64,000 nt of DNA from Escherichia phage KEP4 (PP047754), one strand, 5' to 3'. Shown: positions 1 to 64,000, counted from the stretch's first letter. The notes: generated from the letters alone by a model not told the origin. Translations and numbers: made by a program.

Positions 1-269
1 ATGACGCGTTTACACGTGGTCTGTTCAGCAATGCGGTTCGTCCATATATTCGCCAGCTGGCGAATATGGGCGCGATTTACGATGGTAAAGTCAAGTGTGA
101 TGAAGATAACAACACTGCTGATGTCATTGCGGCAAACCAAATGGTTGCTGGTATCTGGTTGAAACCGGAATACAGCATAAATTGGGTGTATCTTGACTTT
201 GCTGCAGTTCGACCAGATATGGAGTTCAGCGAAATCGAATCCGGTGGCGGCATCGTTGCTGCTTCATAA
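1..269 (+). CDS. tail sheath protein (gp18-like), C-terminal fragment; 5' end upstream of window
   Basis: Open frame runs from the window edge to TAA 267-269; sits immediately upstream of gp19/gp20/gp21/gp22/gp23 in T4 order; followed by a terminator hairpin. Confidence 0.5.
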   Translation, partial: DAFTRGLFSNAVRPYIRQLANMGAIYDGKVKCDEDNNTADVIAANQMVAGIWLKPEYSINWVYLDFAAVRPDMEFSEIESGGGIVAAS

Positions 270-277
270 AATGACCA

Positions 278-298
278 ACCCCGCTTCGGCGGGGTTTT
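278..298 (+). terminator. rho-independent terminator after sheath gene
   Basis: Hairpin accccgc-ttcg-gcggggt followed by TTTT; same core hairpin recurs after gp23 at 6634-6655. Confidence 0.6.
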
Positions 299-326
299 CC
301 TTTGTCTTATTGATTTGAGTTATTGA

Positions 327-785
327 ATGATATACGCATACAAAATTGAAACGATAACTAATGGAAAGGTCTACATCGGTGTGACCAATCACCCACAACG
401 AAGATATGATCAGCATTTTGCGAATGCTTTTCATCATGGAGTCCAAAGTGAATTGTATGATGCCATGCGTAAGTATGGAACATCTGGATTTACTTTCGTT
501 GTAATTGCTCAGACCGATGAAGTCCATAAATGGGAATTAGAGAAGCAACTCATCGCTCAATATAATTCTTATGAGATGGGTTACAACATGAATAAAGGCG
601 GTAATGATGGAAGTCATATGCTGGGTAAAACTGCAGCAAAATTGACATCTACAGGTGAACACATTGGTCTTGTTTCTCTCATAGATCCCCGTTGGGAATT
701 GTGTGAAATCGAACCCGTTTTAAGCAATGTTGACCACGGATTTGATTTTTCTTCCATGAAGATTAAAAGATTGACGACTAATTAG
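327..785 (+). CDS. GIY-YIG family endonuclease (Seg-like homing endonuclease candidate), 152 aa
   Basis: N-terminus IYAYKIETITNGKVYIGVTNHPQRRYDQHF matches the GIY...YIG...R...H motif; inserted between gp18 and gp19, which are adjacent in T4. Confidence 0.6.
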   Translation: MIYAYKIETITNGKVYIGVTNHPQRRYDQHFANAFHHGVQSELYDAMRKYGTSGFTFVVIAQTDEVHKWELEKQLIAQYNSYEMGYNMNKGGNDGSHMLGKTAAKLTSTGEHIGLVSLIDPRWELCEIEPVLSNVDHGFDFSSMKIKRLTTN

Positions 786-815
786 AATTGTGTACTCTTA
801 TTTGGAGATATAAAA

Positions 816-1349
816 ATGGCGACAGTCAATGAGTTTCGCGCAGCCATGTCACGAGGGGGCGGCGTACAACGCCAACACCGCTGGCGTGTGACTGTAAACT
901 TTCCTTCTTTTGTTGCTGGTTCCGACACAATTCGTGACGTGTCCTTGCTGGCTGTAACCACCAACACCCCAACAGGTCAGCTGGGCGAAATTCTGGTGCC
1001 CTGGGGTGGTCGTGAACTTCCGTTCCCAGGGGATCGTCGTTTCGAAGCGCTTCCTGTGACGTTCATTAACGTGGTGAACAACGCTCCATACAATGCTTTT
1101 GAAGTGTGGCAGCAATTCATCAACGGTAGTGAAAACAACCGCGCCAGCGCGAATCCAGATGATTATTTCCGTGATATCATCATGGAACTTCTGGACGCGA
1201 ATGACAACGTGACTAAGACATGGACTTTGCAGGGTGGCTGGCCTCAAAACCTCGGCCAATTGGAACTCGATATGTCGGCAATGGACTCTTACACACAGTT
1301 CACTGTCGACTTGCGTTATTTCCAAGCCGTTTCTGACAAGTCATTGTAA
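816..1349 (+). CDS. tail tube protein gp19
   Basis: 177 aa; C-terminal TWTLQGGWPQNLGQLELDMS pattern resembles T4 gp19; position between sheath and portal. Confidence 0.75.
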   Translation: MATVNEFRAAMSRGGGVQRQHRWRVTVNFPSFVAGSDTIRDVSLLAVTTNTPTGQLGEILVPWGGRELPFPGDRRFEALPVTFINVVNNAPYNAFEVWQQFINGSENNRASANPDDYFRDIIMELLDANDNVTKTWTLQGGWPQNLGQLELDMSAMDSYTQFTVDLRYFQAVSDKSL

Positions 1350-1416
1350 TGTCCTCGGTGCTGGGGGAATGTTATTCCCCCTCACTAATTACAAGAAAAT
1401 GTTGAGGACTTAGATC

Positions 1417-3099
1417 ATGGCTGGATACGGCAGAGGGTTCTTCGGTTTGTTTGGCGGCGGCGGTTTAGTCAATGCCAAAGTCGACACCGATAAGTTAGCC
1501 CAAAAACAAGATGAATTGTTGCTCACCAAGGCGACAGTTGTTGCTCTGGACGATGCTCAAGACGGTTCTATAATCCTTCAGGGCGGTGCAAACACCTACA
1601 ACTATGTTGGCGTTGAGAGTGAACTTCTCAGCGTTAAAACAGTTGTGGAAGAATATCAGTCCATGGCTCAACAGCCTGAAATTCGCAAAGCGGTGGACAT
1701 TATTGTCAATGATGTTGTCACCTGTGAGGAAGATGAAACTCCAGTGACAGTAAACCTTGACAAAGTTGAAGGGATATCTGATACTGTTAAAGAATCTATC
1801 ACCGAATGCTTCAAAGAAGTTATGCACTTGATGGACTTTGACAATACAGCATATCAGAAGATCCGGAAATGGTATGTTGACGGTCGACAAGCATATCATG
1901 TCATCGTTGATCCCACGAATAAAAAAGGCGGGATCAAGAAATTGGTTATGCTTGATTCTCGTTGCATTCGTCCTGTCTATATCGTTGAGAAGGCGATGCG
2001 TGAAGGCGGTATTGAAGCAATAGAATCTGTAACATTGAAGTATTATTACAACCCGAATTATAATCGAAACCAATTCACTGGCCAATCTGGTACTTCCCAG
2101 AACTTCCAGCCTTCACAGCAAGAACTCGTATTCGATGACGAAAGCATTGTTTACATCGATAGTGGTGAAGAGCCATTGGCCAATGGTATTGTCCCAGGCC
2201 TTTTAAATCCTGCTATCCGTCCGTTGAACAACCTGGTTACGACTGAAGATGCGACTGTAATTTATGCCATCACTCGCGCCCCTGAGAAACGCGCATTCTA
2301 TCTTGACGTCGGTACTCTCGGTAAGAAATCTGCTGAAGAATACATGACCATGATGATGGGTAAATTCAAAAACCGCAACGCATATGACCGCACCACTGGT
2401 AAGATAACAGGTAATGCCCATCTTATGGGTATTGCAGAGGATTATTGGTTGCCGCGCCGCGAAGGTCAGAATGCTACAGAGATTGCGACTGTTGGGGGTG
2501 GGAATCAATTGGGCGAAATGGATCACGTGAACTATTTCCGTGAAAAACTCTATGATGCTCTAATGATCCCTAAGAGCCGCCTCCAAGAGGAAGGATCTAT
2601 TAACATTGGGGGTTCTAACCTTGCGGAGATTACACAGGAAGAGCTGCGCTTCAGCAAGTTCTGTGCTGGGTTACGACGCCGTTACTCCCATTTCTTCATG
2701 GAATTCTTGCGCCGCCAGTTAATTTTGAAAGGCGTTACGGATGAAAAGGATTGGAATGAGAAGATCAAACCGTTTATAAAGTTTGAATTCACATCCGATA
2801 GTTACATTCGTGAACAACAAGAAAACGCTATCTTGAATGATCGTCTGGCTTCATTGAACACTGTTGAGCCATTTGTTGGTTCCATTTTCTCCATAGACTA
2901 CGTCATGAGAAATGTATTGCGTATGTCTGATGAAGAAGTTAAAGAACAACAAACGAAGATCGCGGAAGAGAAAAAGAAAGGTCTCTATCCGAAGGTTCAA
3001 GCAGATGAAACTGGCAATTATAGCGGTTCAGATGTTAGTCCGTTGAAGTTTAAACCTGAGACTATCCCATTCTCCGGTTCAACAGACGATAGTATTTAA
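1417..3099 (+). CDS. portal vertex protein gp20
   Basis: 560 aa ORF with RBS; size and position (after gp19, before prohead core/protease/scaffold/capsid genes) match T4 gene 20. Confidence 0.7.
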   Translation: MAGYGRGFFGLFGGGGLVNAKVDTDKLAQKQDELLLTKATVVALDDAQDGSIILQGGANTYNYVGVESELLSVKTVVEEYQSMAQQPEIRKAVDIIVNDVVTCEEDETPVTVNLDKVEGISDTVKESITECFKEVMHLMDFDNTAYQKIRKWYVDGRQAYHVIVDPTNKKGGIKKLVMLDSRCIRPVYIVEKAMREGGIEAIESVTLKYYYNPNYNRNQFTGQSGTSQNFQPSQQELVFDDESIVYIDSGEEPLANGIVPGLLNPAIRPLNNLVTTEDATVIYAITRAPEKRAFYLDVGTLGKKSAEEYMTMMMGKFKNRNAYDRTTGKITGNAHLMGIAEDYWLPRREGQNATEIATVGGGNQLGEMDHVNYFREKLYDALMIPKSRLQEEGSINIGGSNLAEITQEELRFSKFCAGLRRRYSHFFMEFLRRQLILKGVTDEKDWNEKIKPFIKFEFTSDSYIREQQENAILNDRLASLNTVEPFVGSIFSIDYVMRNVLRMSDEEVKEQQTKIAEEKKKGLYPKVQADETGNYSGSDVSPLKFKPETIPFSGSTDDSI

Positions 3100-3140
3100 A
3101 GTTCAACTAAATATAGAAAATTAATTCGGAGATCAAAATC

Positions 3141-3311
3141 ATGAGCGCAATTGATATCGTTCGTGCAGTAATTGACGGTGACACTGAAACTGCTGTTGCA
3201 GAATGCAACATGGAACTTGATGCACGTAGTCAAGAACTATTAAACCAAGGCACCGCATATGTTCTGGATTCTATCGCAGCTGATATGAATTCAAACAACA
3301 ACGGCCAGTAA
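3141..3311 (+). CDS. small prohead core protein candidate (gp67 position), 56 aa
   Basis: Short ORF (below the ORF-track cutoff) with ATG at 3141; sits where T4 gene 67 lies between portal and gp68/gp21. Confidence 0.3.
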   Translation: MSAIDIVRAVIDGDTETAVAECNMELDARSQELLNQGTAYVLDSIAADMNSNNNGQ

Positions 3312-3319
3312 GGAGATGC

Positions 3320-3637
3320 ATGATGGAAATCACAGAGATCGCCACGTTCGCTGATTTCCTGGCCTCTCGTATGGACGAGCAGCGAGTCATCGATAAAGTG
3401 AACGCTCGTGGTAAACGCCGCCGCCGCTTGAAATGTGCCCCTGGGTTCAAATTGTCGGCTGATGGTTCACGTTGTGAAGTTATGGACGCCAGCGAACGTC
3501 GTGTTCGCAAGATCGGCAACCGCAAAGCCCTCCGCTCTAAAAAGCGTATGGGAATGGGCTATCAACGTAAAATCGAGCGCCGCAAGAAAAAGGCTATGAA
3601 GTTCCGCAAAATGATGGGACTGAGTAAGAACAAGTAA
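3320..3637 (+). CDS. prohead core protein candidate (gp68 position), very basic 105 aa
   Basis: AAGGAG RBS at 3311-3316; Arg/Lys-rich; position between portal and prohead protease as for T4 gene 68. Confidence 0.4.
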   Translation: MMEITEIATFADFLASRMDEQRVIDKVNARGKRRRRLKCAPGFKLSADGSRCEVMDASERRVRKIGNRKALRSKKRMGMGYQRKIERRKKKAMKFRKMMGLSKNK

Positions 3638-3644
3638 GGAGTTT

Positions 3645-4313
3645 ATGATGAAACTGTTGCGTGAGATCACAGCGATAGGGAAGGATCTTCAAATCGGTGA
3701 GGCCACAACCTCAACTGGTGGGAAGGCCATGTTCATCGAAGGTCCGTTTGTGATGTGTAACCAAGTCAACCGTAACGGGCGTAACTATGATCTGCAGAAA
3801 GTGGGTATTCCTGCTGTCGAAGCATACGACAAAGAGTATATCCAAGATCGTCGCGCAATCGGTGAAGTCACACATCCTGACTATCCTTTCCCTAATCTGG
3901 TGGAAGCTGCGCTCAAAACCGAATCCCTTCGCTGGGAAGGCACTAATGCCATCGGTCGGGCGCGAATTTTAAATACACCAAAAGGCCAAATCATACGTGC
4001 ATTGGCCGAAGCAGACTTCAATCTGGCCGTGTCTACACGTGGCCTGGGTGAGACCAAGTCAGTAAACGGTTATGATGACGTTCAGCCTGGCTTTATGCTC
4101 ACCGCTGTTGATGCAGTCGACCGTCCTTCTGGACAAGTTTGTTATGTTAAGGCTGTGAGTGAATCTGTTGAATGGCAGCTTGATGAGGCTTCGGGTATTT
4201 GGATGCCTCGTGATGTTAAAGGGAAAGTTGTAGACCAGTTGGTGAAAACCAATATCCAGGTTGAAGACGATTTCCTGCGCCGCCTTGATGCAGCATTGAA
4301 TCATCTGGGCTGA
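3645..4313 (+). CDS. prohead core scaffold/protease gp21
   Basis: 222 aa; T4 gp21-like size and position immediately upstream of scaffold gp22 and capsid gp23. Confidence 0.75.
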   Translation: MMKLLREITAIGKDLQIGEATTSTGGKAMFIEGPFVMCNQVNRNGRNYDLQKVGIPAVEAYDKEYIQDRRAIGEVTHPDYPFPNLVEAALKTESLRWEGTNAIGRARILNTPKGQIIRALAEADFNLAVSTRGLGETKSVNGYDDVQPGFMLTAVDAVDRPSGQVCYVKAVSESVEWQLDEASGIWMPRDVKGKVVDQLVKTNIQVEDDFLRRLDAALNHLG

Positions 4314-4359
4314 ATTTCAGCTCACTAAATACTGAAAAATCGTTCAGAAGGAAACTATC

Positions 4360-5199
4360 ATGAAACCTGAATTGCAAAATCTGTTTGAAGGCGTTAACGG
4401 CATCAGCCCAGATTTCCTGGATAAAGTATCCAATTTGCTGGAATCGAAAGTTGAAGCGGCTCGTCTGAAAGCTATCCAAGAAACCGAAGCAGCTGGCAAC
4501 GTCGAGCGCCTGAATTTGGTAGAATCTCACCAGAAAGAAATCGCCGACCTGAAAGAAAATTTCATTCTGCAATTGGCTGGGAAAGTTGACTCATTCCTCA
4601 ACGCGGTGGTTGAAGAATGGGCTAACAAAAATGCCCCAGCTATTGACGCTCAGATCAAAACTGAAGCTGCTGAACGCTTCCTCACTGGTTTCTCCAACGT
4701 GCTGAAAGAAGCAGGTGTGAGTTTCGCTACTGACCCAGACGGTCAGATTGCTGCCCTCACCAGTCGCCTTGCTGAAGCAGAACAACGCGCCAGCATTGCC
4801 AATACTGAATTGGCTCAGCTCAAAGAAAGTGAAACCAAACGCCAGCGCAATGATGTCATTGATCGTATTTGTGAAGGTATGGTTGACACCAAGAAAGACA
4901 CTGTTGTCAACCTGCTGGAAGGTATTGAATTCCAGACCGAGTCTGAATTTGAATCCCGTGTGCGCACCTTCCGTAACCTGGTAGAAGGCAAAGATGACTT
5001 CTCTGATAAAGTCGGCAAAGACAATGAAAAAGGCAAGCCGGATGGCGACAATTCTGAAAAAGACATCAAAGAAGGTAAAAAACCGAAGAAAGAAGGTGAA
5101 GCCGACGATGATGACGATGACGATGATGACAAAGACGAAGTTGGCAAAGAAGTCAACGAAGCCGTCCGTCGCCAGATCAGTGCTTTGATGAACGGCTAA
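4360..5199 (+). CDS. prohead scaffold protein gp22
   Basis: 279 aa, coiled-coil-like, poly-Asp/Lys-rich C-terminal tail (EADDDDDDDDDKDE); directly upstream of the capsid gene. Confidence 0.7.
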   Translation: MKPELQNLFEGVNGISPDFLDKVSNLLESKVEAARLKAIQETEAAGNVERLNLVESHQKEIADLKENFILQLAGKVDSFLNAVVEEWANKNAPAIDAQIKTEAAERFLTGFSNVLKEAGVSFATDPDGQIAALTSRLAEAEQRASIANTELAQLKESETKRQRNDVIDRICEGMVDTKKDTVVNLLEGIEFQTESEFESRVRTFRNLVEGKDDFSDKVGKDNEKGKPDGDNSEKDIKEGKKPKKEGEADDDDDDDDDKDEVGKEVNEAVRRQISALMNG

Positions 5200-5213
5200 T
5201 TTTAGCAGCCACA

Positions 5214-5237
5214 GCCCTCGAAAGGGGGCTTGATTTT
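5214..5237 (+). terminator. stem-loop / weak terminator after gp22
   Basis: gccctc-gaaa-gggggc hairpin followed by T-rich run. Confidence 0.35.
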
Positions 5238-5290
5238 GAACTACTAAGTAATTTCAACTTAACTGAATATCAATGTAAGGAACGAGCATC

Positions 5291-6613
5291 ATGACTAAGA
5301 AACTTGTAACCGAAGAAATGCGCAAACAGTGGCTGCCAGTTCTCCAAAAAGAATCTGAAGCTATTCAACCTCTGTCTGCCGAAAACGTAACCATCCGTCT
5401 GATGCAGAACCAGGCTGAATGGAACGCAAAAAACCTGGGCGAATCTGACGCACCTGGTTCTGTGAACAGCACTGTCGGTAAATGGCAGCCAGTTCTGATC
5501 GACATGGCAAAACGTCTGGCGCCGATCAACATCGCGATGGACTTCTTCGGTGTTCAGCCGCTGTCTGGTCCTGACGGTCAGATCTTTGCACTGCGCGCTC
5601 GCCAGGGTGTTGGTGACAGTTCCAACACCGCACAGTCTCGTAAAGAACTGTTCATGCAGGAAGCCGATTCCGGCTATTCCGGTGATGGTACTGTACAGGC
5701 TGGCGACCCGTCAGGCTTTAGTCAGGCTGAAATCGAAGGTTCTGGCTCTGGCGTGACCACTATCGGTAAAGGTATGCCGTCAACCGACGCGGAACTGCTG
5801 GGTACTACCACCAATCCGTGGGCGCGTGTTGGTATCACCGTTCAGAAAGCGACCGTTACTGCCAAGTCTCGCGGCCTGTATGCTGATTACAGCCATGAAC
5901 TGCGTCAGGATATGATGGCAATTCACGGCGAAGACGTGGATAATATCCTGTCTGACGTGATGGTAACTGAAATTCAGGCGGAAATGAACCGTGAATTCAT
6001 CCGTACCATGAACTTCAGTGCTGTTCGCTTCAAAAAATTCGGAACCAACGGTGTTGTTGATATCGCGCAGGACATCTCTGGTCGTTGGGCGCTGGAAAAA
6101 TGGAAGTTCCTGACTTTCATGCTGGAAGTTGAAGCGAACGGTATCGGTGTTGACACCCGTCGTGGTAAAGGCAACCGTGTTCTGTGTTCTCCGAACGTGG
6201 CATCCGCTCTGGCGATGTCTGGCATGCTGGACTATGCTCCAGTTCTGCAGGAAAACACTAAACTGGCTGTTGACCCGACTGGCCAGACCTTCGCTGGTGT
6301 TCTGTCCAACGGTATGCGCGTCTATGTTGACCCGTATGCTGTAGCAGAATATATCACTCTGGCATACAAAGGCGCAACTGCGCTGGATGCTGGTATCTTC
6401 TTCGCGCCGTATGTGCCGCTGGAAATGTACCGCACCCAGGGTGAAACCACCTTCGCTCCGCGTATGGCGTTCAAAACCCGTTACGGCATCTGTGCTAACC
6501 CGTTCGTACAGATTCCGGCTAACCAAGACCCGCAGGTTTACGTGACTGCTGACGGTATCGCTCAAGACAGCAACCCGTATTTCCGCAAAGGTCTGATCAA
6601 ATCTCTGTTCTAA
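5291..6613 (+). CDS. major capsid protein gp23
   Basis: 440 aa; motifs GVQPLSGPDGQIFALRA, FAPYVPL and KTRYGICANPF match T4 gp23; strongly biased, highly-expressed-type codon usage. Confidence 0.9.
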   Translation: MTKKLVTEEMRKQWLPVLQKESEAIQPLSAENVTIRLMQNQAEWNAKNLGESDAPGSVNSTVGKWQPVLIDMAKRLAPINIAMDFFGVQPLSGPDGQIFALRARQGVGDSSNTAQSRKELFMQEADSGYSGDGTVQAGDPSGFSQAEIEGSGSGVTTIGKGMPSTDAELLGTTTNPWARVGITVQKATVTAKSRGLYADYSHELRQDMMAIHGEDVDNILSDVMVTEIQAEMNREFIRTMNFSAVRFKKFGTNGVVDIAQDISGRWALEKWKFLTFMLEVEANGIGVDTRRGKGNRVLCSPNVASALAMSGMLDYAPVLQENTKLAVDPTGQTFAGVLSNGMRVYVDPYAVAEYITLAYKGATALDAGIFFAPYVPLEMYRTQGETTFAPRMAFKTRYGICANPFVQIPANQDPQVYVTADGIAQDSNPYFRKGLIKSLF

Positions 6614-6633
6614 TCGACAGGTTTTGATAACAA

Positions 6634-6655
6634 ACCCCGCTTCGGCGGGGTTTTT
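6634..6655 (+). terminator. rho-independent terminator after gp23
   Basis: ccccgc-ttcg-gcgggg hairpin followed by TTTTT; same hairpin core as at 278-298. Confidence 0.65.
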
Positions 6656-6747
6656 CTTTATAGGGATTCACTATAAGACCGCTAATAGTTTTCAATAAAT
6701 GGGCAATGAACGATCATTACCCAACTTTCACAATAGGAATACAACTC

Positions 6748-6942
6748 ATGGCAAAAGAAACTCTTAACAATGAAAACTCCAACTTTGCAGAATGGCATAC
6801 CGAATTAGAGCGCGTTGCCCGTTCTCAACATGGTTCTGCCGCTGATGCAGATGCTTGGCGTGAAGATTATGAATCTGGAAAAACTCCACGTCAGGCTTGG
6901 GAAGACGAATGGGGGTGGGATGATGCCGACTCTAATCCGTAA
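6748..6942 (+). CDS. hypothetical protein, 64 aa, acidic/Trp-rich
   Basis: ATG preceded by an AGGAA leader resembling the conserved cassette leader; start chosen inside ORF-track frame 6706. Confidence 0.35.
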   Translation: MAKETLNNENSNFAEWHTELERVARSQHGSAADADAWREDYESGKTPRQAWEDEWGWDDADSNP

Positions 6943-7153: not shown

Positions 7154-7168
7154 AGAGAGAACTACATC

Positions 7169-7615: not shown

Positions 7616-7626
7616 GAGATTAATAT

Positions 7627-8234: not shown

Positions 8235-8245
8235 ATTTAAAATTT

Positions 8246-55629: not shown

Positions 55630-55637
55630 TCTTTCAA

Positions 55638-56772: not shown

Positions 56773-57153
56773 TCAGTTTGTGCGTTTTAACCATATGGTG
56801 TCTGTTATCGGCTCTGGGTTGTTGACCACATAGAACGTGATGGTTACGCCCAGAGAATGATAATCGTCCGACAATGATACATCAACAGATTGCAATTCAG
56901 CTCTTGGCTCAAAAAGAGCAATGGCATCTTCAACTTTGTTCTTCACGTCGACCTGTATCGTGGGATTTGTGTTTTCCCCCAACATGGTATACAACCCTGC
57001 CCCAATACTCGGATACGTCGGCCAATCACCTACCGTCGACATCACTATATTACGCACAGATTGTAGTACAGCATAAATGCCTGTTTTCTTAGTGACATCT
57101 TTGGTGACCGGATGCATGCCAAACTTCAGGTCAATGTCCTTGTACTCTTTCAT
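56773..57153 (-). CDS. baseplate wedge protein gp25 (GpW/lysozyme-like fold)
   Basis: 126 aa; PSIGAGLYTMLGEN ... VEDAIALFEPRAEL pattern parallels T4 gp25 (FGCDLSDQLFEN ... YEPRIDKL). Confidence 0.65.
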   Translation of the reverse strand: MKEYKDIDLKFGMHPVTKDVTKKTGIYAVLQSVRNIVMSTVGDWPTYPSIGAGLYTMLGENTNPTIQVDVKNKVEDAIALFEPRAELQSVDVSLSDDYHSLGVTITFYVVNNPEPITDTIWLKRTN

Positions 57154-57217
57154 GTTAAACCCCTTTGGATATTGCCTCTCCAGCACGAGAGGGCATTATC
57201 TGCCCTCACCAGTGTAA

Positions 57218-58843
57218 TCATGCGCCTTTACCACCAAAATTGCCGCCGTTATCCTCTAACTCCGGTTTTATATCAATTGGACCTGGGCCTGTAGTTGTTA
57301 CAGGAGTTGCCCCCGCACGTGAGGCGGCGCGACCAGCGCCTTCAGCATATTTGATGTTGCCTTCAATAGTCTGCGCCACCGACAACTTATCACAAACTAT
57401 TTCACTAGCCAGTATTTTAGGCACTTTCAAAGTATTGGAAACTTCCAACATTTCACAGATGAGACGCAACACGTTCTGTGCCTGTATCTCTGCCAATTGG
57501 GAAAATTTCATCAACGCCGTGCCAGCGACCACATTGGAGTAGTTAGAAGAGTGCAAGTGGTAAACTTCTCCTGTCTTACGCTGTACTTCAGTCCCGCCGA
57601 TAGTCAGGTTGTGATCACGACCAACATAGTAACGTTTGTCAAACATCGTCAGATCATAATGATCTTTGACTGATTTATTGACCACGTCCCCGTCAGGAAG
57701 CATCTGCTTATAAGACCCCGAGGAGTGCATCCAATGGAGACGTTCCCCGCCTGGTGTGTCATCAACCTCCATAATATGCCCCGACCGAGATGCCATGACA
57801 TTGTTGTAAGGATAACGAGACCCGCCAGCAGAAGGAACCGACACCTCTCCTGTGTTATCAATATCTTGAACACGCCCAGAAGGAGGCGGAGTTTCCTGAA
57901 CTTTTGGTGTACGATCAGGGATTGGCTCAGACCATTTACCATTTTGTTGTGTAGGAGCCGCCGATGCTGTCGTAGCAGGACCAGGCCAACGATAACCCAA
58001 CACAGATGAGCGGCTGAAGCGACTCACCTTCACAGAATCTGATTGGTTGCCTCCAATACACCAAACATAATTGGCATCGAATTTCTGCACGAACGCAACG
58101 TGTCCGAATGTTGGGTTGTTGCCACGCCGGAATACAACAACAGCGCCGTAGCGGGGTTCCGACAAAGGGGAACCCCATTGCAAATATGAACGAGCCAAAG
58201 CCGAGCGCGTTGAAGTGTATCCTGCTTGGATCAACACCCATCCCACAAATGAAGCGCACCAGCTGACTTCATCTTCCGAAGCGCCCAAAGATGTTGTCTT
58301 GTGATATTCCAAAATCCTTGGGTTATTATTGAATTTGCCAGAATATTCTTTGACACCTAATTCACCACGAGCCACTGTCATCCATTTCTCAGGATCATAA
58401 CCGTCTACAGGCGGTTGAGGTTCTGGTTGTGGGTCGTCTTCAATCTTGACAGGAACATTTTCAACGGCGTTATATTTCTGTCTTTCTATAGATTGAACAA
58501 CCTGGCCCAGCGCCAACGGGTTTGTGTCTGAACCATCCGTTGGTGTCGCCGCTGGCCAAACCCAGGCGATACGAATATTTTGGTATGCTTCATCCAAAGC
58601 AAATCCCATAACATCCGACCCGACTGTAATACCCGTTGGAGACCAGCCTAAACCTGCCGAGGAGGCGTTGGATGCTGGCATGAGCATTTTACCCCAAGGC
58701 AATAATTCGGTAGGTAAGAGAGTGGTATCTTCCGTGTGTACACCATAGATGCGCACAGCGACGCGCCCGTTCTGGTCGGGATCATTCACGTCTTCAACGC
58801 GCCCGTAAAACCAACGCAAGTTGTCTAACATATTGAAACCCAT
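57218..58843 (-). CDS. baseplate central spike/hub protein gp5 with CHAP/NlpC-P60-like peptidase domain
   Basis: N-terminus LRWFYGRVEDVNDPDQNGRVAVRIYGVHTEDTTLLPTELLPW matches the gp5 OB domain; middle VSWCASFVGWVLIQAGY ... GHVAFV resembles a Cys/His CHAP core, not a T4-lysozyme domain. Confidence 0.65.
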   Translation of the reverse strand: MGFNMLDNLRWFYGRVEDVNDPDQNGRVAVRIYGVHTEDTTLLPTELLPWGKMLMPASNASSAGLGWSPTGITVGSDVMGFALDEAYQNIRIAWVWPAATPTDGSDTNPLALGQVVQSIERQKYNAVENVPVKIEDDPQPEPQPPVDGYDPEKWMTVARGELGVKEYSGKFNNNPRILEYHKTTSLGASEDEVSWCASFVGWVLIQAGYTSTRSALARSYLQWGSPLSEPRYGAVVVFRRGNNPTFGHVAFVQKFDANYVWCIGGNQSDSVKVSRFSRSSVLGYRWPGPATTASAAPTQQNGKWSEPIPDRTPKVQETPPPSGRVQDIDNTGEVSVPSAGGSRYPYNNVMASRSGHIMEVDDTPGGERLHWMHSSGSYKQMLPDGDVVNKSVKDHYDLTMFDKRYYVGRDHNLTIGGTEVQRKTGEVYHLHSSNYSNVVAGTALMKFSQLAEIQAQNVLRLICEMLEVSNTLKVPKILASEIVCDKLSVAQTIEGNIKYAEGAGRAASRAGATPVTTTGPGPIDIKPELEDNGGNFGGKGA

Positions 58844-59350
58844 TAGTCAATTAGAATCATGGGTTATTTATGGCGGGGATTTGAAATCTGTCGAATAGTA
58901 ATATTATAGGAAGCTCTGCTTCCGTTCAATTTTATTCTTTTCGTTTCTACTCGCTGAAGCTCGTAACACCGCCTTGACAGGCAGTCCCATTCCAATGCCA
59001 TGGAGGCATAAAGGCGAGGAAAATACTGTACACCTCAGAACATGCGTAGAAAAGGATTATTTTTGCTTCAAAACAAATTCAAACCCCAATTTACACAACA
59101 CTTACTTCAGCAACAACGGTGTTATAGCAATTTAAGGTTAAACGTTCCTGTCTTAACCTATAAAACAGGTAAGCAAAGAAAACCCCACATTACGTGGGGT
59201 TGGAAGATTTCTTGGACAAACGTATCTTTAGTGTCTCTGTTAGCAAATCAAGATGCCAAGGCATCGACTCGCTTATTTCAAATATGCTATAGCCATGTGC
59301 CTTTAATTCGTCACACATCACAAAGTAGGAGAGTAAATCAATTTCAAAAA

Positions 59351-60154
59351 TTAAATGAAAATTTCAGTGACACTGTTAAATTTGACTTCATGTTCTTTCC
59401 CACACGAAGGACATTTAATTTTCGTCGCGTAACGGATACGAGGAATCTTTTTAAAGAAATCGTCGGATATATCTTGAACAATCTCAGATTCAATATTTTC
59501 CCCCACCCATTTAACAAATTCATCTTTGACGCGTTGACGTTCTTTAGCAACATCAGGTGCTATGCCAGGCTCTGCCGGATTCTCTACTTTCCAAACCTGA
59601 CCATCATCGTCATACAAACAATCAATAAATGTCGCGATCATTTGCTCCACAGATGATGCTTCGTTGAGCACTGAGGCGTCCGAGAAGGACGGTTGACGCA
59701 TCTTGATGTGATAGCCACCAGGGAGGTCAAATGTTTCCCTGAAGCCTTCTGGGGACACGCATTTCACTTGGTTGAGGGGGATCGGTAAAACAAGTTCTTG
59801 ACCACATTCTTTAAGGCCAGAAACTGGTTCTTCACCTTCATTTGTGTCGGATGGAACTTTGTTGTTACATTTGTATCGTATCTTCATGACCTCGCCGATA
59901 GATATACAGCGCATCTTTAAAAATACTTCTTCAGTAACACCGATTGGCAGTTTACTAAAGGGAACCCCAGCGTCAACACAACTATCAAACAGTTGCTCCA
60001 GCGTCGCCACACGTTCACTCATAGGAGTGTTCGGATCAGCAACCTGAAGTAACATGGTCTGTTGCCCTGCTGTGAAAGCGCGGTATTTAATCACCGTCGG
60101 CCAGAAATCACTTTTGTGTGTTCTCTCAGTTTTGGGCAATGATGGTAAATTCAT
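59351..60154 (-). CDS. late structural protein, probable baseplate component (identity uncertain), 267 aa
   Basis: GGAGA RBS and TATAAATA late promoter upstream on the - strand; co-oriented with gp5 and gp25; C-terminal CPSCGKEHE zinc-ribbon-like motif; ORF-track start 60247 not used. Confidence 0.4.
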   Translation of the reverse strand: MNLPSLPKTERTHKSDFWPTVIKYRAFTAGQQTMLLQVADPNTPMSERVATLEQLFDSCVDAGVPFSKLPIGVTEEVFLKMRCISIGEVMKIRYKCNNKVPSDTNEGEEPVSGLKECGQELVLPIPLNQVKCVSPEGFRETFDLPGGYHIKMRQPSFSDASVLNEASSVEQMIATFIDCLYDDDGQVWKVENPAEPGIAPDVAKERQRVKDEFVKWVGENIESEIVQDISDDFFKKIPRIRYATKIKCPSCGKEHEVKFNSVTEIFI

Positions 60155-61191: not shown

Positions 61192-61240
61192 TCCGGTCTA
61201 AATACCCATAACACAATGAAACTTCGTTATGGGTATTTTT

Positions 61241-61840
61241 ATGAAATTTTGCGGAATCGACTATTCTTATGGCTGTCCTGCCATGTGCTTCTGGGATGAT
61301 AAAGATCCTTTGGATTTTGACCATCTTCATTTCTATGCGCATCATACTGTAGAAAAACATTGTCGTCAGGTACGGCATAACATCCTCATTTTACGCCAGC
61401 CGAAATATGAATCCCCAGAAGAACGCTTCTACAATATCTCCAAATGGGCCGAAGCTGTTCTTCTAACCGAGAAGCCTGATTTCATCACCCTTGAGGGGTA
61501 CGCAATGGGCAACTCGAAGAATTCCAATAACATATGCCAGACTGCTGAAAATACATCTTTATTGAAGCAAGCAATGCGCCGGAATAATATGGAATTCCAG
61601 ATCGTCACTCCTTCTTTCGTTAAAAAGCATTTCTGTGGTAAAGGAAACGCCGATAAATTGGTAATGATCGATCATTTCGAGAAGCTGTTCAACGTTAAGA
61701 TGCGTGGTATAATGGACATGTTGGACGTGAAGGATCCAAAGCCTATCGATGATCTTGTAGACTCATTCGCAAACATGGTGTCTGGACCTTACTTCATAGA
61801 AAATTATCCCGATTTCAATAGAGGTGTAAGAAATGATTAA
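61241..61840 (+). CDS. RuvC-like Holliday junction resolvase candidate, 199 aa
   Basis: N-terminal FCGIDYS (cf. RuvC ILGIDPG catalytic Asp) and downstream FITLEGYAMG acidic motif; by eye only. Confidence 0.35.
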   Translation: MKFCGIDYSYGCPAMCFWDDKDPLDFDHLHFYAHHTVEKHCRQVRHNILILRQPKYESPEERFYNISKWAEAVLLTEKPDFITLEGYAMGNSKNSNNICQTAENTSLLKQAMRRNNMEFQIVTPSFVKKHFCGKGNADKLVMIDHFEKLFNVKMRGIMDMLDVKDPKPIDDLVDSFANMVSGPYFIENYPDFNRGVRND

Positions 61841-62129
61841 TTACTGGCTGTTGGCAGACATACTGCTTTTCGCCTTGCTGTTGATAACGGCATTTATTTG
61901 GGTTAAGGGATTTCTGACATTCCTACACTCGTTGAGTGCCATGATATCTTTCTATGCTGTGTCCCCCCATAGTGACGTCAATGTACGAGCAGCAAATCAA
62001 TCTGACATGTTGGCTGAATACGTCATGATGCGTGATAAAGCAACCAGGATCGTCCTGTTTTCTACACTGGCGGGGGCGGTTATTATATTCATACAACACG
62101 TCTTGGAGGCAACTCATGCCGTTTTATGA
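61833..62129 (+). CDS. small membrane protein, two predicted TM helices, 98 aa
   Basis: GAGGTG RBS; hydrophobic segments WLLADILLFALLLITAFIWV and IVLFSTLAGAVIIFI. Confidence 0.4.
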   Translation: MINYWLLADILLFALLLITAFIWVKGFLTFLHSLSAMISFYAVSPHSDVNVRAANQSDMLAEYVMMRDKATRIVLFSTLAGAVIIFIQHVLEATHAVL

Positions 62130-62361
62130 TTATGCCTGTACAGGTTGTGGTAATTCTTTCAGTACCAGAAGGTCTTGTGCTGAACGCCATACGCCTGAAT
62201 TAGATCCATGTTCTGAATGTGGCGGTGAAATCAAAATGGTCATTGGAGCACCAAAGATCGTATCTGGTGTCCGTGGCCCACAATCCGCACCTGATGGCTT
62301 CAAAGACGTATTGCGTCATATTAAGAAGCAGTCTGGGAAGGGGAATACAATCGATGTCTGA
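62116..62361 (+). CDS. FmdB-type zinc-ribbon protein, 81 aa
   Basis: GGAGG RBS; MPFYDYACTGCGNSF ... CSECGG has the CxxC...CxxC zinc-ribbon pattern. Confidence 0.45.
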   Translation: MPFYDYACTGCGNSFSTRRSCAERHTPELDPCSECGGEIKMVIGAPKIVSGVRGPQSAPDGFKDVLRHIKKQSGKGNTIDV

Positions 62362-62596
62362 TCAACAAATAGCACAAGTGCTCACACCAGATTCTTTTTC
62401 TGAATTGGTGTTGATGAGAGCAAGCCAACGCAAGGAATCAATCCTTGAAACGATGGCCAGTGTTTGTGAAGAGTATGACATCGAAGAAGCAAAGGTCAAA
62501 AAATTGATCACGCCTCCTCTTCTGTCAAGGCTAACAGCTGAATGTTCTGATGCTCGGTTGTTGAAGGGTGAATTGAAATCTAAAAAACTCATTTAA
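62354..62596 (+). CDS. hypothetical protein, 80 aa
   Basis: ATG after AAGGGGA; overlaps previous stop. Confidence 0.35.
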   Translation: MSDQQIAQVLTPDSFSELVLMRASQRKESILETMASVCEEYDIEEAKVKKLITPPLLSRLTAECSDARLLKGELKSKKLI

Positions 62597-62605
62597 GGTT
62601 GTAAC

Positions 62606-62845
62606 ATGAGCAAAGAGCAAATCTATAAAATGTTGAAGGCGCAAGAGTATCTGCCAGGTTCTATCCGCTGGCGTCATGGTAGCCTCAATGAACATGCTGA
62701 TGATATGGATCGTGTACGTTACACGACGCCGGAAGGTAAATCCTATGTCATCGAATACCATACATTCTTGGAAGGACACAAAACCTTCTCAGATGTGTAC
62801 GACATTATTGAAATAGACCCAGCAAAACAAATGATTGCGGGTTAA
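62606..62845 (+). CDS. hypothetical protein, 79 aa
   Basis: ORF with ATG start. Confidence 0.4.
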   Translation: MSKEQIYKMLKAQEYLPGSIRWRHGSLNEHADDMDRVRYTTPEGKSYVIEYHTFLEGHKTFSDVYDIIEIDPAKQMIAG

Positions 62846-62941
62846 CTCAATAGCAAAACGCAGTATAATTACACCGTCGGAATAATTGACAAATACATTT
62901 ACAGAATAGCCCGAAGGGGCGGATTATAGAGGAATATTAAA

Positions 62942-63973
62942 ATGGGTAATTTATTTGATCGTCTTAAACAATCTCGTGGCCAACAAGCCGAAGCTATGCA
63001 ACAGCGACTCGCTCAGCAAGGCCAGCGTGTTGGTGGCGGTCGTGACCCACGCATCTGGAAGTGGACCTGGAATGACAAGGGTACTTCTGAAAACATCATT
63101 CGTTTCCTGCCGATCCCTTTGGTGGACATGAAGGCTCAAGAAGAAGGCACTATCCCTGAAGATGCTGTGTTAACTCCGTGTGCCATGATCATGAAACACG
63201 CATTCCAGGGCGCTGGCGGCTGGTATATCGAAAACTCTCCGCAGACTTTCGGTAACGATGATCCTGTTCGTGACCACGATCGTCCTCTGTGGGCACAACA
63301 GAAAGAAACGAATGATGAAAAGCTGAAAACAGTTCTCAAAAAACGTCTGCCGGACACCAAATACTACGCCAACATCCTGGTGATCAAAGATGGCAACAAT
63401 CCGGAAAACAACGGCAAGGTCTTCTTGCTTGAGTTCGGTAATGCCGTCAAGAAAATCCTGGATTCGGCTCAGAATCCTAAGTTCTCAACTGACCCTAAAT
63501 TCGACCCGTTCGATATGTGGGAAGGCGCGAACCTGATTCTGAACCTCTTTGGCGAAGAGAAAGAGTTCGGCAACTGGAAAGGTCTGGTGGCCAACTTCAC
63601 CAATGTGAAGTGGGATACTCCGGCACCTTTGGGGACAGACGAATACATTGAAGAGATCTGGGAAAAAGAACACAGTCTGTTTGAGTTCTTTAATCCGGCC
63701 AACTTCAAATCGTACGAAGATCTGGAAAAACGTTTGCGCAAAGTTCTGGCCATCCCTGATAATCAGCCTCTGGTTGAAGGTGGTGCTTCTACTATGGCAC
63801 ATGCGCCTACCCAGTCTCAGGAACCCCAGCGCCCAACAGCGCAGGAAAGTCTGAACCAACAACAATCTCAGCCTTCTAATGCACAGCAATCTGTTCCAGC
63901 CAATAATGGTGGTGCCGATGCGAAACAGACGGCTTCCATTGATGAGTTCGAGCAGTTCCTGAAGCAAGACTAA
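62942..63973 (+). CDS. single-stranded DNA-binding protein gp32
   Basis: IIRFLP, GWYIEN, GKVFLLEFG, DMWEGANLILNL, FEFFNPANFKSYEDLEKRLRK and acidic C-terminal tail parallel T4 gp32. Confidence 0.85.
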   Translation: MGNLFDRLKQSRGQQAEAMQQRLAQQGQRVGGGRDPRIWKWTWNDKGTSENIIRFLPIPLVDMKAQEEGTIPEDAVLTPCAMIMKHAFQGAGGWYIENSPQTFGNDDPVRDHDRPLWAQQKETNDEKLKTVLKKRLPDTKYYANILVIKDGNNPENNGKVFLLEFGNAVKKILDSAQNPKFSTDPKFDPFDMWEGANLILNLFGEEKEFGNWKGLVANFTNVKWDTPAPLGTDEYIEEIWEKEHSLFEFFNPANFKSYEDLEKRLRKVLAIPDNQPLVEGGASTMAHAPTQSQEPQRPTAQESLNQQQSQPSNAQQSVPANNGGADAKQTASIDEFEQFLKQD

Positions 63974-63980
63974 TTTCGCT

Positions 63981-64000
63981 AAAGCCCCTTCGGGGGCTTT
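63981..64000 (+). terminator. stem-loop after gp32 (runs to window edge)
   Basis: aaagcccc-ttcg-ggggcttt hairpin; T-run not visible. Confidence 0.4.

What the first reader, a model, noticed from the sequence alone, without database searches (positions are those of the whole stretch)
1..64000. Extensive module shuffling relative to T4 and dispersed lysis genes
The head block keeps T4 order, but the replisome block (45-44-62-regA) is inverted relative to T4 and placed after uvsW. The gp55-47-46 block, primase, PhoH, RNR and gp32 follow on the same strand, while gp25, gp5 and another late gene lie between RNR and gp32 on the opposite strand. Wall-degrading functions are scattered (transglycosylase 41967, endolysin 50119, gp5 peptidase 57218) with no adjacent holin. 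Module boundaries often coincide with the promoter/stem-loop cassettes.
Basis: partly seen in the sequence, partly recalled or inferred. Interest (0 to 1): 0.4.

Follow-up and report, generated by a model that had tools for sequence, protein, structure and literature searches.

The report
Standard Kuttervirus (ViI-like) genome backbone
This 64-kb stretch is an ordinary piece of a ViI-like Salmonella/E. coli phage (genus Kuttervirus), and its T4-type genes sit in the same order as in the rest of its virus family, an order already published as very different from T4.

Summary
The gene calls in the finding are correct. The window is 94-98% identical over about its full length to more than 140 Kuttervirus genomes (SE14, ISTP3, sal1, CBA120, ViI).

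At protein level, signed breakpoints between consecutive shared genes were:
- CBA120: 0 of 87
- Dickeya Limestonevirus (a different subfamily): 0 of 46
- Vibrio Vapseptimavirus: 23 of 24 shared genes collinear
- T4: 10 of 20

So the "shuffling" is an old, fixed difference between Ackermannviridae and T4. It was published in 2011-2012.

The wall-degrading genes are scattered and no holin sits next to the endolysin. T4's own lysis genes are scattered too.

The promoter/stem-loop cassettes are real: TTTACT-N16/17-TATNNT occurs 6 times against 0.28 expected. They do not mark T4-module edges: 0 of 30 junctions at a T4-block edge carry one. All six lie inside accessory regions in front of unrelated genes of unknown function. 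Five of six coincide with gene insertion or replacement sites among Kutterviruses (p about 0.01; p = 0.076 when only long intergenic gaps are compared). That resembles the PeSL cassettes of T4-like phages. This is the only mildly new point.

Verdict: observation largely right, already known, low interest.

The parts
1..6613 (+). Late head/tail block in T4 order: gp18 C-terminus (1-269), Seg-type homing endonuclease (327-785), gp19 (816-1349), gp20 portal (1417-3099), 56-aa ORF at the gp67 position (3141-3311), gp68 (3323-3637), gp21 (3648-4313), gp22 (4360-5199), gp23 (5291-6613).
   Evidence: tblastn to T4; CBA120 annotation at 99-100% protein identity.
6614..11265 (+). Accessory region of about 12 small genes of unknown function, one on the - strand (10582-11235). 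Contains cassette c8261 and two indel sites that vary within the genus (6667-6683 and 8345-8981).
11266..14532 (+). gp3 tail completion (11266-11760), UvsY (11802-12257), PD-(D/E)XK exonuclease (12257-13003), UvsW helicase (13033-14532).
   Evidence: the same run is present in Vibrio phage BX-1.
14538..14903 (-). Opposite-strand gene (phrog_4255, function unknown), convergent with uvsW. It is followed by a 339-nt non-coding divergent region (14904-15242) upstream of gp45.
   Evidence: hairpin at 14558-14577; the stretch carries no annotated CDS in CBA120.
15243..17900 (+). Clamp and clamp-loader block: gp45 (15243-15911), gp44 (15990-16979), gp62 (16984-17406), RegA homologue (17436-17900).
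   Evidence: tblastn to T4 (gp44 4.6e-41, gp62 1e-6, regA 6e-28); gp45 matches phrog_223 at 1.6e-65.
17917..26866 (+). Block right after regA that carries two nucleotide/DNA-modification genes plus large unknowns: MazG-like pyrophosphatase (17917-18780), 5-hmdU DNA kinase (18850-20076), a 671-aa unknown (20190-22205), a VWA-domain protein (24294-26510), and a gene annotated as acyl carrier protein in phage PS5 (26555-26866).
   Evidence: Pfam HMUDK_hel 1.4e-83 and VWA; PHROGs; PS5 annotation.
26867..33567 (+). Hyperplastic accessory region. Holds cassettes c26913 and c28502, the pair annotated as spanins in phage PS5 (28559-29248 and 29245-29565), a LysM protein (31900-32208), a 69-aa protein with two transmembrane segments (32205-32414), an SPFH lipoprotein (32414-33205) and a DNA-binding protein annotated as HU-beta in Ds23CZ (33289-33567).
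   Evidence: Most within-genus indels fall here. The run from regA to the helicase is about 16 kb here and about 1 kb in Vibrio phage BX-1.
33693..40968 (+). Helicase (33693-35414), a conserved - strand gene (35411-36178), RNase HI (36221-36748), gp55 late sigma factor (36760-37530), gp47 (37517-38632), gp46 (38635-40968).
41276..42584 (+). NrdA.1 homologue (41276-41605), a small gene of unknown function (41586-41870), and the Vs.1 homologue with a marginal SLT transglycosylase domain (41967-42584).
   Evidence: tblastn to T4 nrdA.1 (1.8e-17) and vs.1 (2.6e-17); SLT E = 2e-4; phrog_600.
43223..43776 (+). A complete variable slot. It consists of a hairpin, a TTTACT...TATAAT promoter, a conserved leader (43223-43329), a gene of unknown function (43327-43695) and a terminator (43707-43723).
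   Evidence: Homology to CBA120, PS5, SeB, SeE and SeJ breaks at 43330/43341 and resumes at 43718-43723. The allele is present at 99% or more in 41 records.
46818..48916 (+). rI.-1-like gene (46818-47171), an unknown gene (47235-47852), gp61 primase (47852-48916).
50119..50913 (+). Endolysin with PG_binding_1 plus an N-acetylmuramidase domain (PF11860). It has no neighbouring membrane protein. A TTAAATAC motif lies 37 nt upstream of the ATG.
51021..55629 (+). PhoH (51021-51860), NrdA (51945-54221), NrdB (54292-55395), glutaredoxin (55405-55629).
56773..60154 (-). Baseplate genes on the opposite strand: gp26 (59351-60154), gp5 with OB and CHAP domains (57218-58843), gp25 (56773-57153). A 507-nt non-coding gap (58844-59350) separates gp5 from gp26.
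61229..63973 (+). RuvC-like endonuclease (61229-61840), a 98-aa membrane protein with two transmembrane segments (61833-62129), FmdB-like protein (62116-62361), gp33 (62354-62596), a 79-aa ORF (62606-62845), gp32 (62942-63973).
8235..8340 (+). Cassette c8261: GGGG...CCCC hairpin, TTTACT-N16-TATACT promoter, leader ending AGGAACTACATCATG.
26867..26986 (+). Cassette c26913: hairpin at 26875-26898, then TTTACT-N17-TATTAT.
28480..28558 (+). Cassette c28502: TTTACT-N17-TATCAT with no hairpin. Insertions of 298-858 nt in relatives lie just upstream, at 28461-28470.
49123..49324 (+). Cassette c49216: hairpin at 49151-49171, an AT-rich tract, TTTACT-N17-TATTAT, and a leader ending AGGAATTACATCATG.
55630..55738 (+). 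Cassette c55656: hairpin at 55636-55658 overlapping the -35 hexamer, TTTACT-N17-TATACT, and a leader ending AGGAACTATATCATG.

Best explanation
The window is about 40% of a Kuttervirus genome (Ackermannviridae, Cvivirinae; the ViI/CBA120 group). Its gene order is the fixed backbone of that family.

Ackermannviridae share operon-sized blocks of T4 core genes: 18-19-20-68-21-22-23, 45-44-62-regA, 55-47-46, nrdA-nrdB, 33-32 and 26/25. Compared with T4 these blocks have been relocated and re-oriented, so that nearly all genes here are transcribed from one strand (87 of the 92 mapped genes; one further - strand gene was recognised later).

I infer that the rearrangements are old, pre-dating the split of the family's subfamilies, and that they are not ongoing.

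I also infer that timing is set by promoter class rather than by strand. T4-early-type sigma-70 promoters (TTTACT-N16/17-TATNNT), usually fused to an upstream GC-rich hairpin terminator, drive accessory and early units. A T4-late-like nTAAATA motif sits 28-39 nt upstream of late genes, including the endolysin.

The wall-degrading functions are separate genes with separate roles. gp5-CHAP would act at entry and the muramidase endolysin at exit; the role of the Vs.1/SLT-like protein is unknown. As in T4, they are not organised as a lysis cassette.
For: Shown:
- Megablast identity of 94-98% over 96-100% of each third of the window to more than 140 Kuttervirus records.
- A single collinear blastn chain to CBA120, PS5, SeB, SeE and SeJ.
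- Protein synteny: 0 of 87 breakpoints against CBA120, 0 of 46 against Limestonevirus Ds23CZ, 23 of 24 shared genes collinear with Vapseptimavirus BX-1, and 10 of 20 breakpoints against T4, with 8 genes in the same and 13 in the opposite orientation (annotations).
- Published statements: gene order "very different" from T4 and "remarkable synteny" among CBA120, ViI and AG3 (PMC3184105); gene order "strongly conserved" in LIMEstone1 (PMC3296691).
- The promoter pattern occurs 6 times against 0.28 expected, always on + and always intergenic. Five copies sit at the same junctions in Ds23CZ.
- The same pattern hits intergenic sites on the early strand of T4, including the annotated early promoter Pe133295.
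- nTAAATA lies 28-39 nt upstream of 11 start codons.
- T4's own lysis genes are dispersed.
Against: No transcription data were available, so the promoter classes and their timing are inferred from sequence only. The plain CTAAATA count is not above chance for the whole window (9 found, 6.5 expected); only its strand, its intergenic placement and its spacing are suggestive. No single database record is identical to the window, and the best-matching relative changes between segments, so the exact isolate is not identified.
Confidence: 0.93

Rival explanations
1. PeSL-like reading of the cassettes. The hairpin + early promoter + leader units would serve as short homology patches at which unrelated accessory genes are inserted, deleted or swapped among Ackermannviridae by homologous recombination, as shown for RB49/phi1. 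On this reading they drive small-scale plasticity. They do not explain the large T4-versus-Ackermannviridae rearrangements.
For: - Five of 6 TTTACT junctions carry a within-genus indel or replacement boundary, against 23 of 85 other junctions (one-sided Fisher p = 0.0099; p = 0.017 when only non-T4 regions are compared).
- Homology breaks 3-14 nt after the ATG at c43251 and c8261 and resumes inside the downstream terminator.
- c8261 and c43251 are 80% identical over 56 nt, and c43251 and c55656 are 90% identical over 40 nt, yet the downstream proteins are unrelated.
- The leader motif AGGAAYTWYATCATG occurs 4 times against 0.02 expected, always behind a cassette.
- Three of 5 genes placed first behind a cassette have no homologue in Limestonevirus.
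- All the downstream genes belong to PHROG families of unknown function.
Against: - The numbers are small, and the five comparison genomes share ancestry, so events are not independent.
- The association weakens to p = 0.076 when only intergenic gaps of 50 nt or more are compared.
- The cassettes sit at fixed, conserved positions across subfamilies, which fits ordinary conserved promoters placed in front of fast-evolving genes.
- Many indels lie at plain terminators or are homing-endonuclease insertions with no cassette.
Confidence: 0.4
2. The promoter/stem-loop cassettes mediated the shuffling of T4 core modules, so module boundaries coincide with cassettes.
For: Two cassettes follow the ends of functional units, after primase plus one small ORF and after NrdA-NrdB-glutaredoxin. 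Hairpins occur at some block ends, for example after gp18 and after gp23.
Against: None of the 30 junctions next to a T4-homologous block carries a TTTACT promoter; all 6 lie inside non-T4 regions. Hairpins are no more frequent at block edges (6 of 30) than elsewhere (20 of 61; odds ratio 0.51, p = 0.23). Hairpins also occur inside conserved blocks: gp19|gp20, gp45|gp44 and nrdA|nrdB.
Confidence: 0.07
3. The order is a recent, lineage-specific mosaic or an assembly chimera peculiar to this sequence.
For: The best-matching relative differs by segment: SE14 for 1-25000, sal1/SeF3a for 24001-40000, ISTP3 for 39001-64000. That suggests recombination within the genus.
Against: More than 140 independent isolates cover each segment in one collinear place. 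There are no breakpoints against CBA120 or against a phage of another subfamily.
Confidence: 0.02

Closest known systems
Kuttervirus genomes (Salmonella phage ViI/Vi01, Escherichia phage CBA120, Salmonella phages SE14, ISTP3 and sal1); family Ackermannviridae
   Same: Nucleotide identity of 94-98% over the whole window. Eighty-eight of 92 genes are shared with CBA120 in identical order and orientation. The regulatory cassettes sit at the same positions.
   Different: Only small accessory-gene indels and replacements at about 22 sites. The window is not identical to any single record.
Escherichia phage T4 (Straboviridae) genome organisation
   Same: Twenty-one window genes have a tblastn homologue in T4 at E < 1e-4, and more are detected by profile searches. 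Gene order inside operon-sized blocks is conserved. The lysis functions are dispersed in both. The early promoters share a TTTAC -35 element and the late motif is TATAAATA-like.
   Different: - Ten of 20 adjacencies between shared genes are broken, and the replication and recombination blocks are co-oriented with the head genes.
- gp5 carries a CHAP domain in place of the lysozyme domain of T4 gp5.
- The endolysin is a PF11860 muramidase with a PG_binding_1 domain, and neither it nor any other window ORF gave a tblastn match to T4 e or the holin gene t at E < 1e-3.
PeSL cassettes (promoter-early stem-loop) of RB49/phi1, T4/PST and KVP40/nt-1 (Arbiol 2010, PMC2839356; Comeau 2014, PMC4122927)
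   Same: A composite of a GC-rich (GGGG...CCCC) hairpin plus a sigma-70-like early promoter, sometimes preceded by an AT-rich tract. The cassettes lie in accessory regions in front of genes of unknown function. They coincide with insertion and replacement boundaries between close relatives.
   Different: There are only 6 strict copies in 64 kb. Their positions are conserved across subfamilies. A conserved leader and start-codon context is part of the repeat. Promoter and terminator activity and mini-circle formation are untested. I found no paper in the searchable library that mentions PeSLs together with Ackermannviridae.

Membership tests
Kuttervirus / Ackermannviridae genome | High nucleotide identity to type members over the compared length. 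The 70% genome-wide identity threshold for a genus is quoted from my own knowledge of ICTV practice. | tested here: met
   94-98% identity over 96-100% of each of three overlapping segments to CBA120, Vi01 and more than 140 others.
Kuttervirus / Ackermannviridae genome | Conserved family gene order | tested here: met
   0 of 87 breakpoints against CBA120, 0 of 46 against Limestonevirus Ds23CZ, and 23 of 24 shared genes collinear with Vapseptimavirus BX-1.
Kuttervirus / Ackermannviridae genome | Thymidine hypermodification genes (5-hmdU DNA kinase) | tested here: met
   18850-20076 matches Pfam HMUDK_hel at 1.4e-83. That ViI carries a hypermodified thymidine is from my own knowledge.
Kuttervirus / Ackermannviridae genome | Cluster of multiple tailspike genes forming the branched receptor-binding complex | not testable with these tools
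   The tailspike locus lies outside this 64-kb window.
T4-type genome organisation (Straboviridae-like gene order) | T4 core gene set (head, tail, replisome, late transcription) | tested here: met
   gp18, 19, 20, 21, 23, 3, 25, 26, 5, 44, 62, regA, 46, 47, 61, 32, uvsW and nrdA/B by tblastn; gp45 and gp55 by PHROGs; gp22, gp68, gp33 and UvsY by annotation transfer.
T4-type genome organisation (Straboviridae-like gene order) | T4 order and strand arrangement of the core modules | tested here: not met
   10 of 20 signed breakpoints, and 13 of 21 shared genes in opposite relative orientation.
PeSL (promoter-early stem-loop) cassettes | Repeated sigma-70-like early promoter motif | tested here: met
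   TTTACT-N16/17-TATNNT occurs 6 times against 0.28 expected, always on + and always intergenic. This is a sequence-level test only.
PeSL (promoter-early stem-loop) cassettes | Adjacent GC-rich stem-loop that forms a composite element with the promoter | tested here: met
   Five of the 6 promoter junctions also hold a perfect hairpin of at least 6 bp with at least 4 GC pairs. c28502 has none.
PeSL (promoter-early stem-loop) cassettes | Location in hyperplastic regions next to genes of unknown function | tested here: met
   All 6 lie in the interior of non-T4 regions. The downstream genes are unrelated to one another and belong to PHROG families of unknown function.
PeSL (promoter-early stem-loop) cassettes | Indel and replacement boundaries between close relatives fall at the cassettes | tested here: inconclusive
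   5 of 6 against 23 of 85 junctions, p = 0.0099, but p = 0.076 when restricted to intergenic gaps of 50 nt or more. Only five related comparison genomes were used.
PeSL (promoter-early stem-loop) cassettes | Demonstrated promoter and terminator activity, and recombination products (mini-circles) | not testable with these tools
   Needs reporter assays and inverse PCR on infected cells.
Canonical contiguous lysis cassette (holin-endolysin-spanin) | A holin or other small membrane protein and spanins adjacent to the endolysin | tested here: not met
   No transmembrane segment was found in the neighbours of 50119-50913. The only spanin-family hit, 29245-29565 (phrog_3843), is 20 kb away.

The most novel reading that the evidence does not exclude
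Ackermannviridae may carry their own PeSL-like system. In it, roughly 100-nt units (GC hairpin, T4-early-type promoter, conserved leader ending AGGAAYTAYATCATG) at fixed backbone positions would act as docking sites where unrelated genes of unknown function are exchanged by homologous recombination. This would extend the "mobile regulatory cassette" mechanism beyond the T4-like Straboviridae. I found no report of this for the family in the searchable literature.
Probability: 0.35. Interest if true: 0.35.

Novelty: already known. Interest (0 to 1): 0.12.

Why it matters
It matters little as a discovery. The architecture was described when ViI, CBA120, AG3 and LIMEstone1 were sequenced.

The useful outcome is a negative one. 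The apparent "shuffling" is a fixed, family-wide backbone, not evidence of recent mosaicism. The cassettes do not mark the T4 breakpoints.

Two modest leads remain:
- Kutter et al. (2011) reported that they could not identify early promoters in CBA120. The TTTACT-N16/17-TATNNT sites and the nTAAATA motif give concrete candidates for the early and late promoter sets, testable by 5'-end transcript mapping.
- The cassettes mark variable gene slots and may work like PeSLs.

In the papers I could read, no holin had been identified for this group. That is an open annotation gap. The scattered gene arrangement is shared with T4 and is not itself an anomaly.

Tried and rejected
- An exact 16-mer scan of IMG/VR with TTTACTTCTTCAATAA returned mostly chance hits in unrelated contigs. 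Only about five contigs had Kuttervirus length. It was uninformative, and one scan was wasted.
- The generic sigma-70 and terminator scans were only slightly above the shuffled expectation and too noisy. I replaced them with the specific TTTACT pattern and a strict hairpin rule.
- CTAAATA alone is not enriched in the window as a whole. Only its strand bias and its spacing from start codons are suggestive.
- Rfam found nothing in the window, including the two large non-coding gaps. No tRNAs were found.
- I tested whether the genes behind the cassettes are paralogues, which would explain the shared 5' ends. They are not.
- The 204-aa ORF at 59042-59656 in the gp5|gp26 gap has no PHROG match and overlaps gp26, so I treated it as spurious.
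- The Viunalikevirus genus-proposal paper by Adriaenssens et al. (Arch Virol, 2012) could not be retrieved. Nothing in this report rests on it.
- My first codon-usage gene caller missed regA and several small genes. I replaced it with annotation transfer from CBA120 and PS5.

Full report
**Identity of the window.** Megablast of three overlapping segments (1-25000, 24001-40000, 39001-64000) against 50,697 phage records gave 279-292 matching records per segment. In 140-164 of them a single place covered at least 80% of the segment. All the best hits are Kuttervirus (Ackermannviridae, Cvivirinae): SE14 at 97.2%, sal1 and SeF3a at 98.4%, ISTP3 at 97.9%, CBA120 at 94.7-96.3%, and Vi01 at 97.6% over the middle segment. 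The G+C content of 41-48% fits this group; CBA120 is 44.5%. There are no tRNAs and no Rfam matches. No record is identical to the window, and the best relative changes from segment to segment.

**Gene map.** I transferred the CBA120 and PS5 annotations onto the window by tblastn and added a few ORFs. This gave 92 genes, 87 on the + strand, covering 92.6% of the sequence. A 93rd gene, on the - strand (14538-14903, phrog_4255), was recognised later.

**tblastn against T4.** I fetched the complete T4 genome and searched the window ORFs against it. Homologues were found for gp18, 19, 20, 21, 23, gp3, UvsW, gp44, gp62, RegA (45% identity, E = 6e-28), gp47, gp46, NrdA.1, Vs.1, rI.-1, gp61, NrdA, NrdB, gp25, gp5, gp26 and gp32.

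**Profile searches.**
- gp45 matches phrog_223 and gp55 matches phrog_234.
- gp26 matches Pfam T4_baseplate.
- The endolysin has PG_binding_1 plus the Muramidase domain PF11860.
- gp5 has Gp5_OB plus CHAP.
- The Vs.1 homologue has a marginal SLT hit.
- A 5-hmdU DNA kinase, a VWA protein, a helicase and a PD-(D/E)XK exonuclease were also identified.

The unnamed "another late gene" is gp26.

**Is the order unusual?** It is unusual relative to T4. Of 20 adjacencies between consecutive shared genes, 10 are signed breakpoints. Thirteen of 21 shared genes have the opposite orientation relative to T4. In T4 the head genes are on the + strand and 55-47-46-45-44-62-regA are on the - strand. Here both sets are on +. 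The replisome block is thus inverted relative to the head block while keeping its internal order.

**It is not unusual for its own lineage.**
- CBA120: 88 of 92 genes shared, 0 of 87 breakpoints.
- Dickeya phage Ds23CZ (Limestonevirus, subfamily Aglimvirinae): 47 shared genes in the 42 kb fetched, 0 of 46 breakpoints.
- Vibrio phage BX-1 (Vapseptimavirus; its gp46 is only 33% identical): 23 of 24 shared genes collinear.

BX-1 carries a compressed version of the same backbone: head block, gp3-UvsY-exonuclease-UvsW, 45-44-62-regA, helicase, RNase H-55-47-46. The stretch from regA to the helicase is about 16 kb in the window and about 1 kb in BX-1.

**What was already published.** Kutter et al. 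[quoted passage not shown] Adriaenssens et al. 2012 wrote that gene order is "strongly conserved" in LIMEstone1, and that the order of the structural region is largely conserved with T4 (PMC3296691). The finding's own refutation criterion, collinearity with a well-described genus, is met.

**Lysis genes.** The three wall-degrading genes are real and far apart: 41967, 50119 and 57218. The endolysin's neighbours have no transmembrane segment. The only spanin-family match is 29245-29565 (phrog_3843), about 20 kb away. Phage PS5 annotates 28559-29248 and 29245-29565 as i- and o-spanin. However, the first looks like a secreted protein and the second lacks a canonical lipobox (sequences). Those labels are therefore uncertain.

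Small membrane proteins that could be holin candidates are 32205-32414 (two transmembrane segments, between a LysM protein and an SPFH lipoprotein), 61833-62129, 27839-27997 and 9651-9821. None has an informative family.

Dispersal is also the T4 condition: e lies at 66.5 kb, t at 160.2 kb, pseT.2/pseT.3 at 135 kb and rI at 59 kb. The CBA120 and AG3 papers already reported that no holin could be found. A 2022 study lists phrog_600 as lysozyme-like, plus an endolysin and an Rz-like spanin, as the Kuttervirus lysis arsenal (PMC9409062).

**The cassettes exist.** Listing all intergenic regions showed a recurring unit. It is a GC-rich hairpin (often GGGG...CCCC), then TTTACT, then 16-17 nt (often TCTTCAATAA...), then TATNNT.
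- The pattern TTTACT-N16/17-TATNNT occurs 6 times against 0.28 expected. All copies are on + and intergenic: 8261, 26913, 28502, 43251, 49216 and 55656.
- The octamer TTCAATAA is enriched, 19 found against 4.4 expected.
- Four cassettes continue into a conserved leader ending AGGAAYTWYATCATG, 4 found against 0.02 expected.
- c8261 and c43251 are 80% identical over 56 nt, and c43251 and c55656 are 90% identical over 40 nt. The proteins they precede are unrelated.

The same pattern hits intergenic sites on the early (-) strand of T4, including the annotated early promoter Pe133295. It therefore looks like a T4-early-type promoter. Five of the sites are at the same junctions in Limestonevirus. 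The LIMEstone1 paper reported finding early, middle and late promoters by T4 consensus. Kutter et al. reported being unable to identify early promoters in CBA120.

**A late-promoter candidate.** An nTAAATA motif, including exact TATAAATA copies upstream of gp26 and of the gene at 9853, lies 28-39 nt upstream of 11 start codons. These include gp22, gp5, gp26 and the endolysin. I read it as the late promoter. This is inference only, because the plain CTAAATA count is not above chance.

**Do cassettes mark module boundaries?** I classified the 91 gene junctions into three classes: inside a T4 block (10), at the edge of a T4 block (30), and inside non-T4 DNA (51). Strict hairpins occur in 3, 6 and 17 of these. 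TTTACT promoters occur in 0, 0 and 6. Edge against the rest gives an odds ratio of 0.51 (p = 0.23) for hairpins, and no promoter at any edge. Hairpins also occur inside conserved blocks: gp19|gp20, gp45|gp44 and nrdA|nrdB. The claimed coincidence with T4-module boundaries is not supported. With a hairpin at 26 of the 91 junctions, any boundary region spanning several genes is likely to contain one.

**What the cassettes do coincide with.** I chained blastn alignments of the window to CBA120, PS5, SeJ, SeB and SeE. This gave about 22 distinct indel or replacement sites. Five of the 6 TTTACT junctions have such a boundary within 40 nt of the intergenic region, against 23 of 85 other junctions:
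- one-sided Fisher p = 0.0099 overall
- p = 0.017 when only non-T4 DNA is compared
- p = 0.076 when only intergenic gaps of 50 nt or more are compared

The clearest case is 43223-43776. Homology to all five relatives runs through the hairpin, promoter, leader and ATG. It stops at 43330/43341 and resumes inside the terminator at 43718-43723, with a different gene in between. The window's allele is present at 99% or more in 41 records. A 36% allele occurs in others, and homologues at about 31% occur in T4-like Proteus phages. Three of the 5 genes placed first behind a cassette have no homologue in Limestonevirus.

This matches the published description of PeSLs, which are hairpin plus early-promoter cassettes flanking genes of unknown function at indel sites (PMC2839356 and PMC4122927). 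No paper in the searchable library mentions PeSLs together with Ackermannviridae. The evidence is suggestive but weak. The numbers are small and the comparison genomes are related. The fixed positions of the cassettes also fit ordinary conserved promoters placed in front of fast-evolving genes.

**Verdict.** It is the known, conserved architecture of a well-studied phage genus. The proposed link between cassettes and T4 synteny breakpoints fails. Novelty: already known. The only residual novelty is a possible PeSL-like role of the cassettes in small-scale gene turnover, which I put at a probability of about 0.35 and modest interest.

Noticed in passing
window 17917-26866: A MazG-like pyrophosphatase (17917-18780) and a 5-hmdU DNA kinase (18850-20076, Pfam HMUDK_hel 1.4e-83) sit directly after regA. 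This looks like the thymidine-hypermodification cluster known for ViI-like phages (that link is from my own knowledge). The adjacent 671-aa protein (20190-22205) is only partly conserved in Limestonevirus Ds23CZ.
   Followed up: partly
window 14533-15242: The 710-nt stretch between uvsW and gp45 has no annotated CDS in CBA120. It holds a - strand ORF (14538-14903) that matches phrog_4255 at E = 1e-61. A 339-nt non-coding divergent region follows. Phage SeJ has replaced 14579-14872 with unrelated sequence.
   Followed up: partly
window 58844-59350: A 507-nt non-coding gap lies between gp5 and gp26 on the - strand. It contains a strong - strand hairpin at 59181-59201 and has no Rfam match. Its function is unknown; an origin of replication or a non-coding RNA is possible.
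   Followed up: no
window 8326-8340, 43315-43329, 49310-49324, 55724-55738: The conserved start-codon context AGGAAYTWYATCATG occurs 4 times against 0.02 expected, always at the first gene behind a TTTACT cassette, and the downstream proteins are unrelated. It could be a shared translational operator, and this phage does encode a RegA homologue.
   Followed up: partly
window 3107, 4325, 9613, 9824, 13000, 46184, 46780, 50082, 61198 (+ strand); 58871, 60189 (- strand): An nTAAATA motif, including exact TATAAATA copies at 9823 and 60190, lies 28-39 nt upstream of start codons of late-type genes: gp22, gp5, gp26, the endolysin and others. It is a candidate late-promoter consensus for this group.
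   Followed up: partly
window 17436-17900: A clear RegA homologue (45% identity to T4 RegA, E = 6e-28) is labelled only "conserved hypothetical phage protein" (orf160) in the CBA120 record.
   Followed up: yes
window 28559-29565: The i-spanin and o-spanin labels carried by phage PS5 look doubtful. 28559-29248 (229 aa) starts with a signal-peptide-like segment ending AAA. 29245-29565 (phrog_3843, Rz-like) has an N-terminal hydrophobic segment but no canonical lipobox.
   Followed up: partly
window 31583-33205: A run of five genes has no hit in Limestonevirus Ds23CZ: one annotated as superinfection exclusion in PS5, a LysM protein, a 69-aa protein with two transmembrane segments, and an SPFH lipoprotein, plus 30636-31304 just upstream. 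The LysM gene is also missing from CBA120, SeB, SeE and SeJ. The two-transmembrane protein is a holin-like candidate.
   Followed up: partly
window 43327-43695: The variable-slot gene (phrog_13016, function unknown) has homologues at about 31% identity in the Proteus phages Pm5461 and PM2 (which I recall as T4-like). This hints at exchange of accessory genes across families.
   Followed up: partly
window 1-64000: The closest database relative changes along the window: SE14, then sal1/SeF3a, then ISTP3. This suggests a homologous-recombination mosaic within the genus.
   Followed up: no
window 327-785; 36744-36765; 47848-47852: Homing-endonuclease-type insertions account for some variable sites. 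The Seg-like gene between gp18 and gp19 is replaced in SeJ. SeJ also has insertions of 746 nt between RNase H and gp55 and of 658 nt in front of the primase gene. Ds23CZ annotates a homing endonuclease at that last position.
   Followed up: partly
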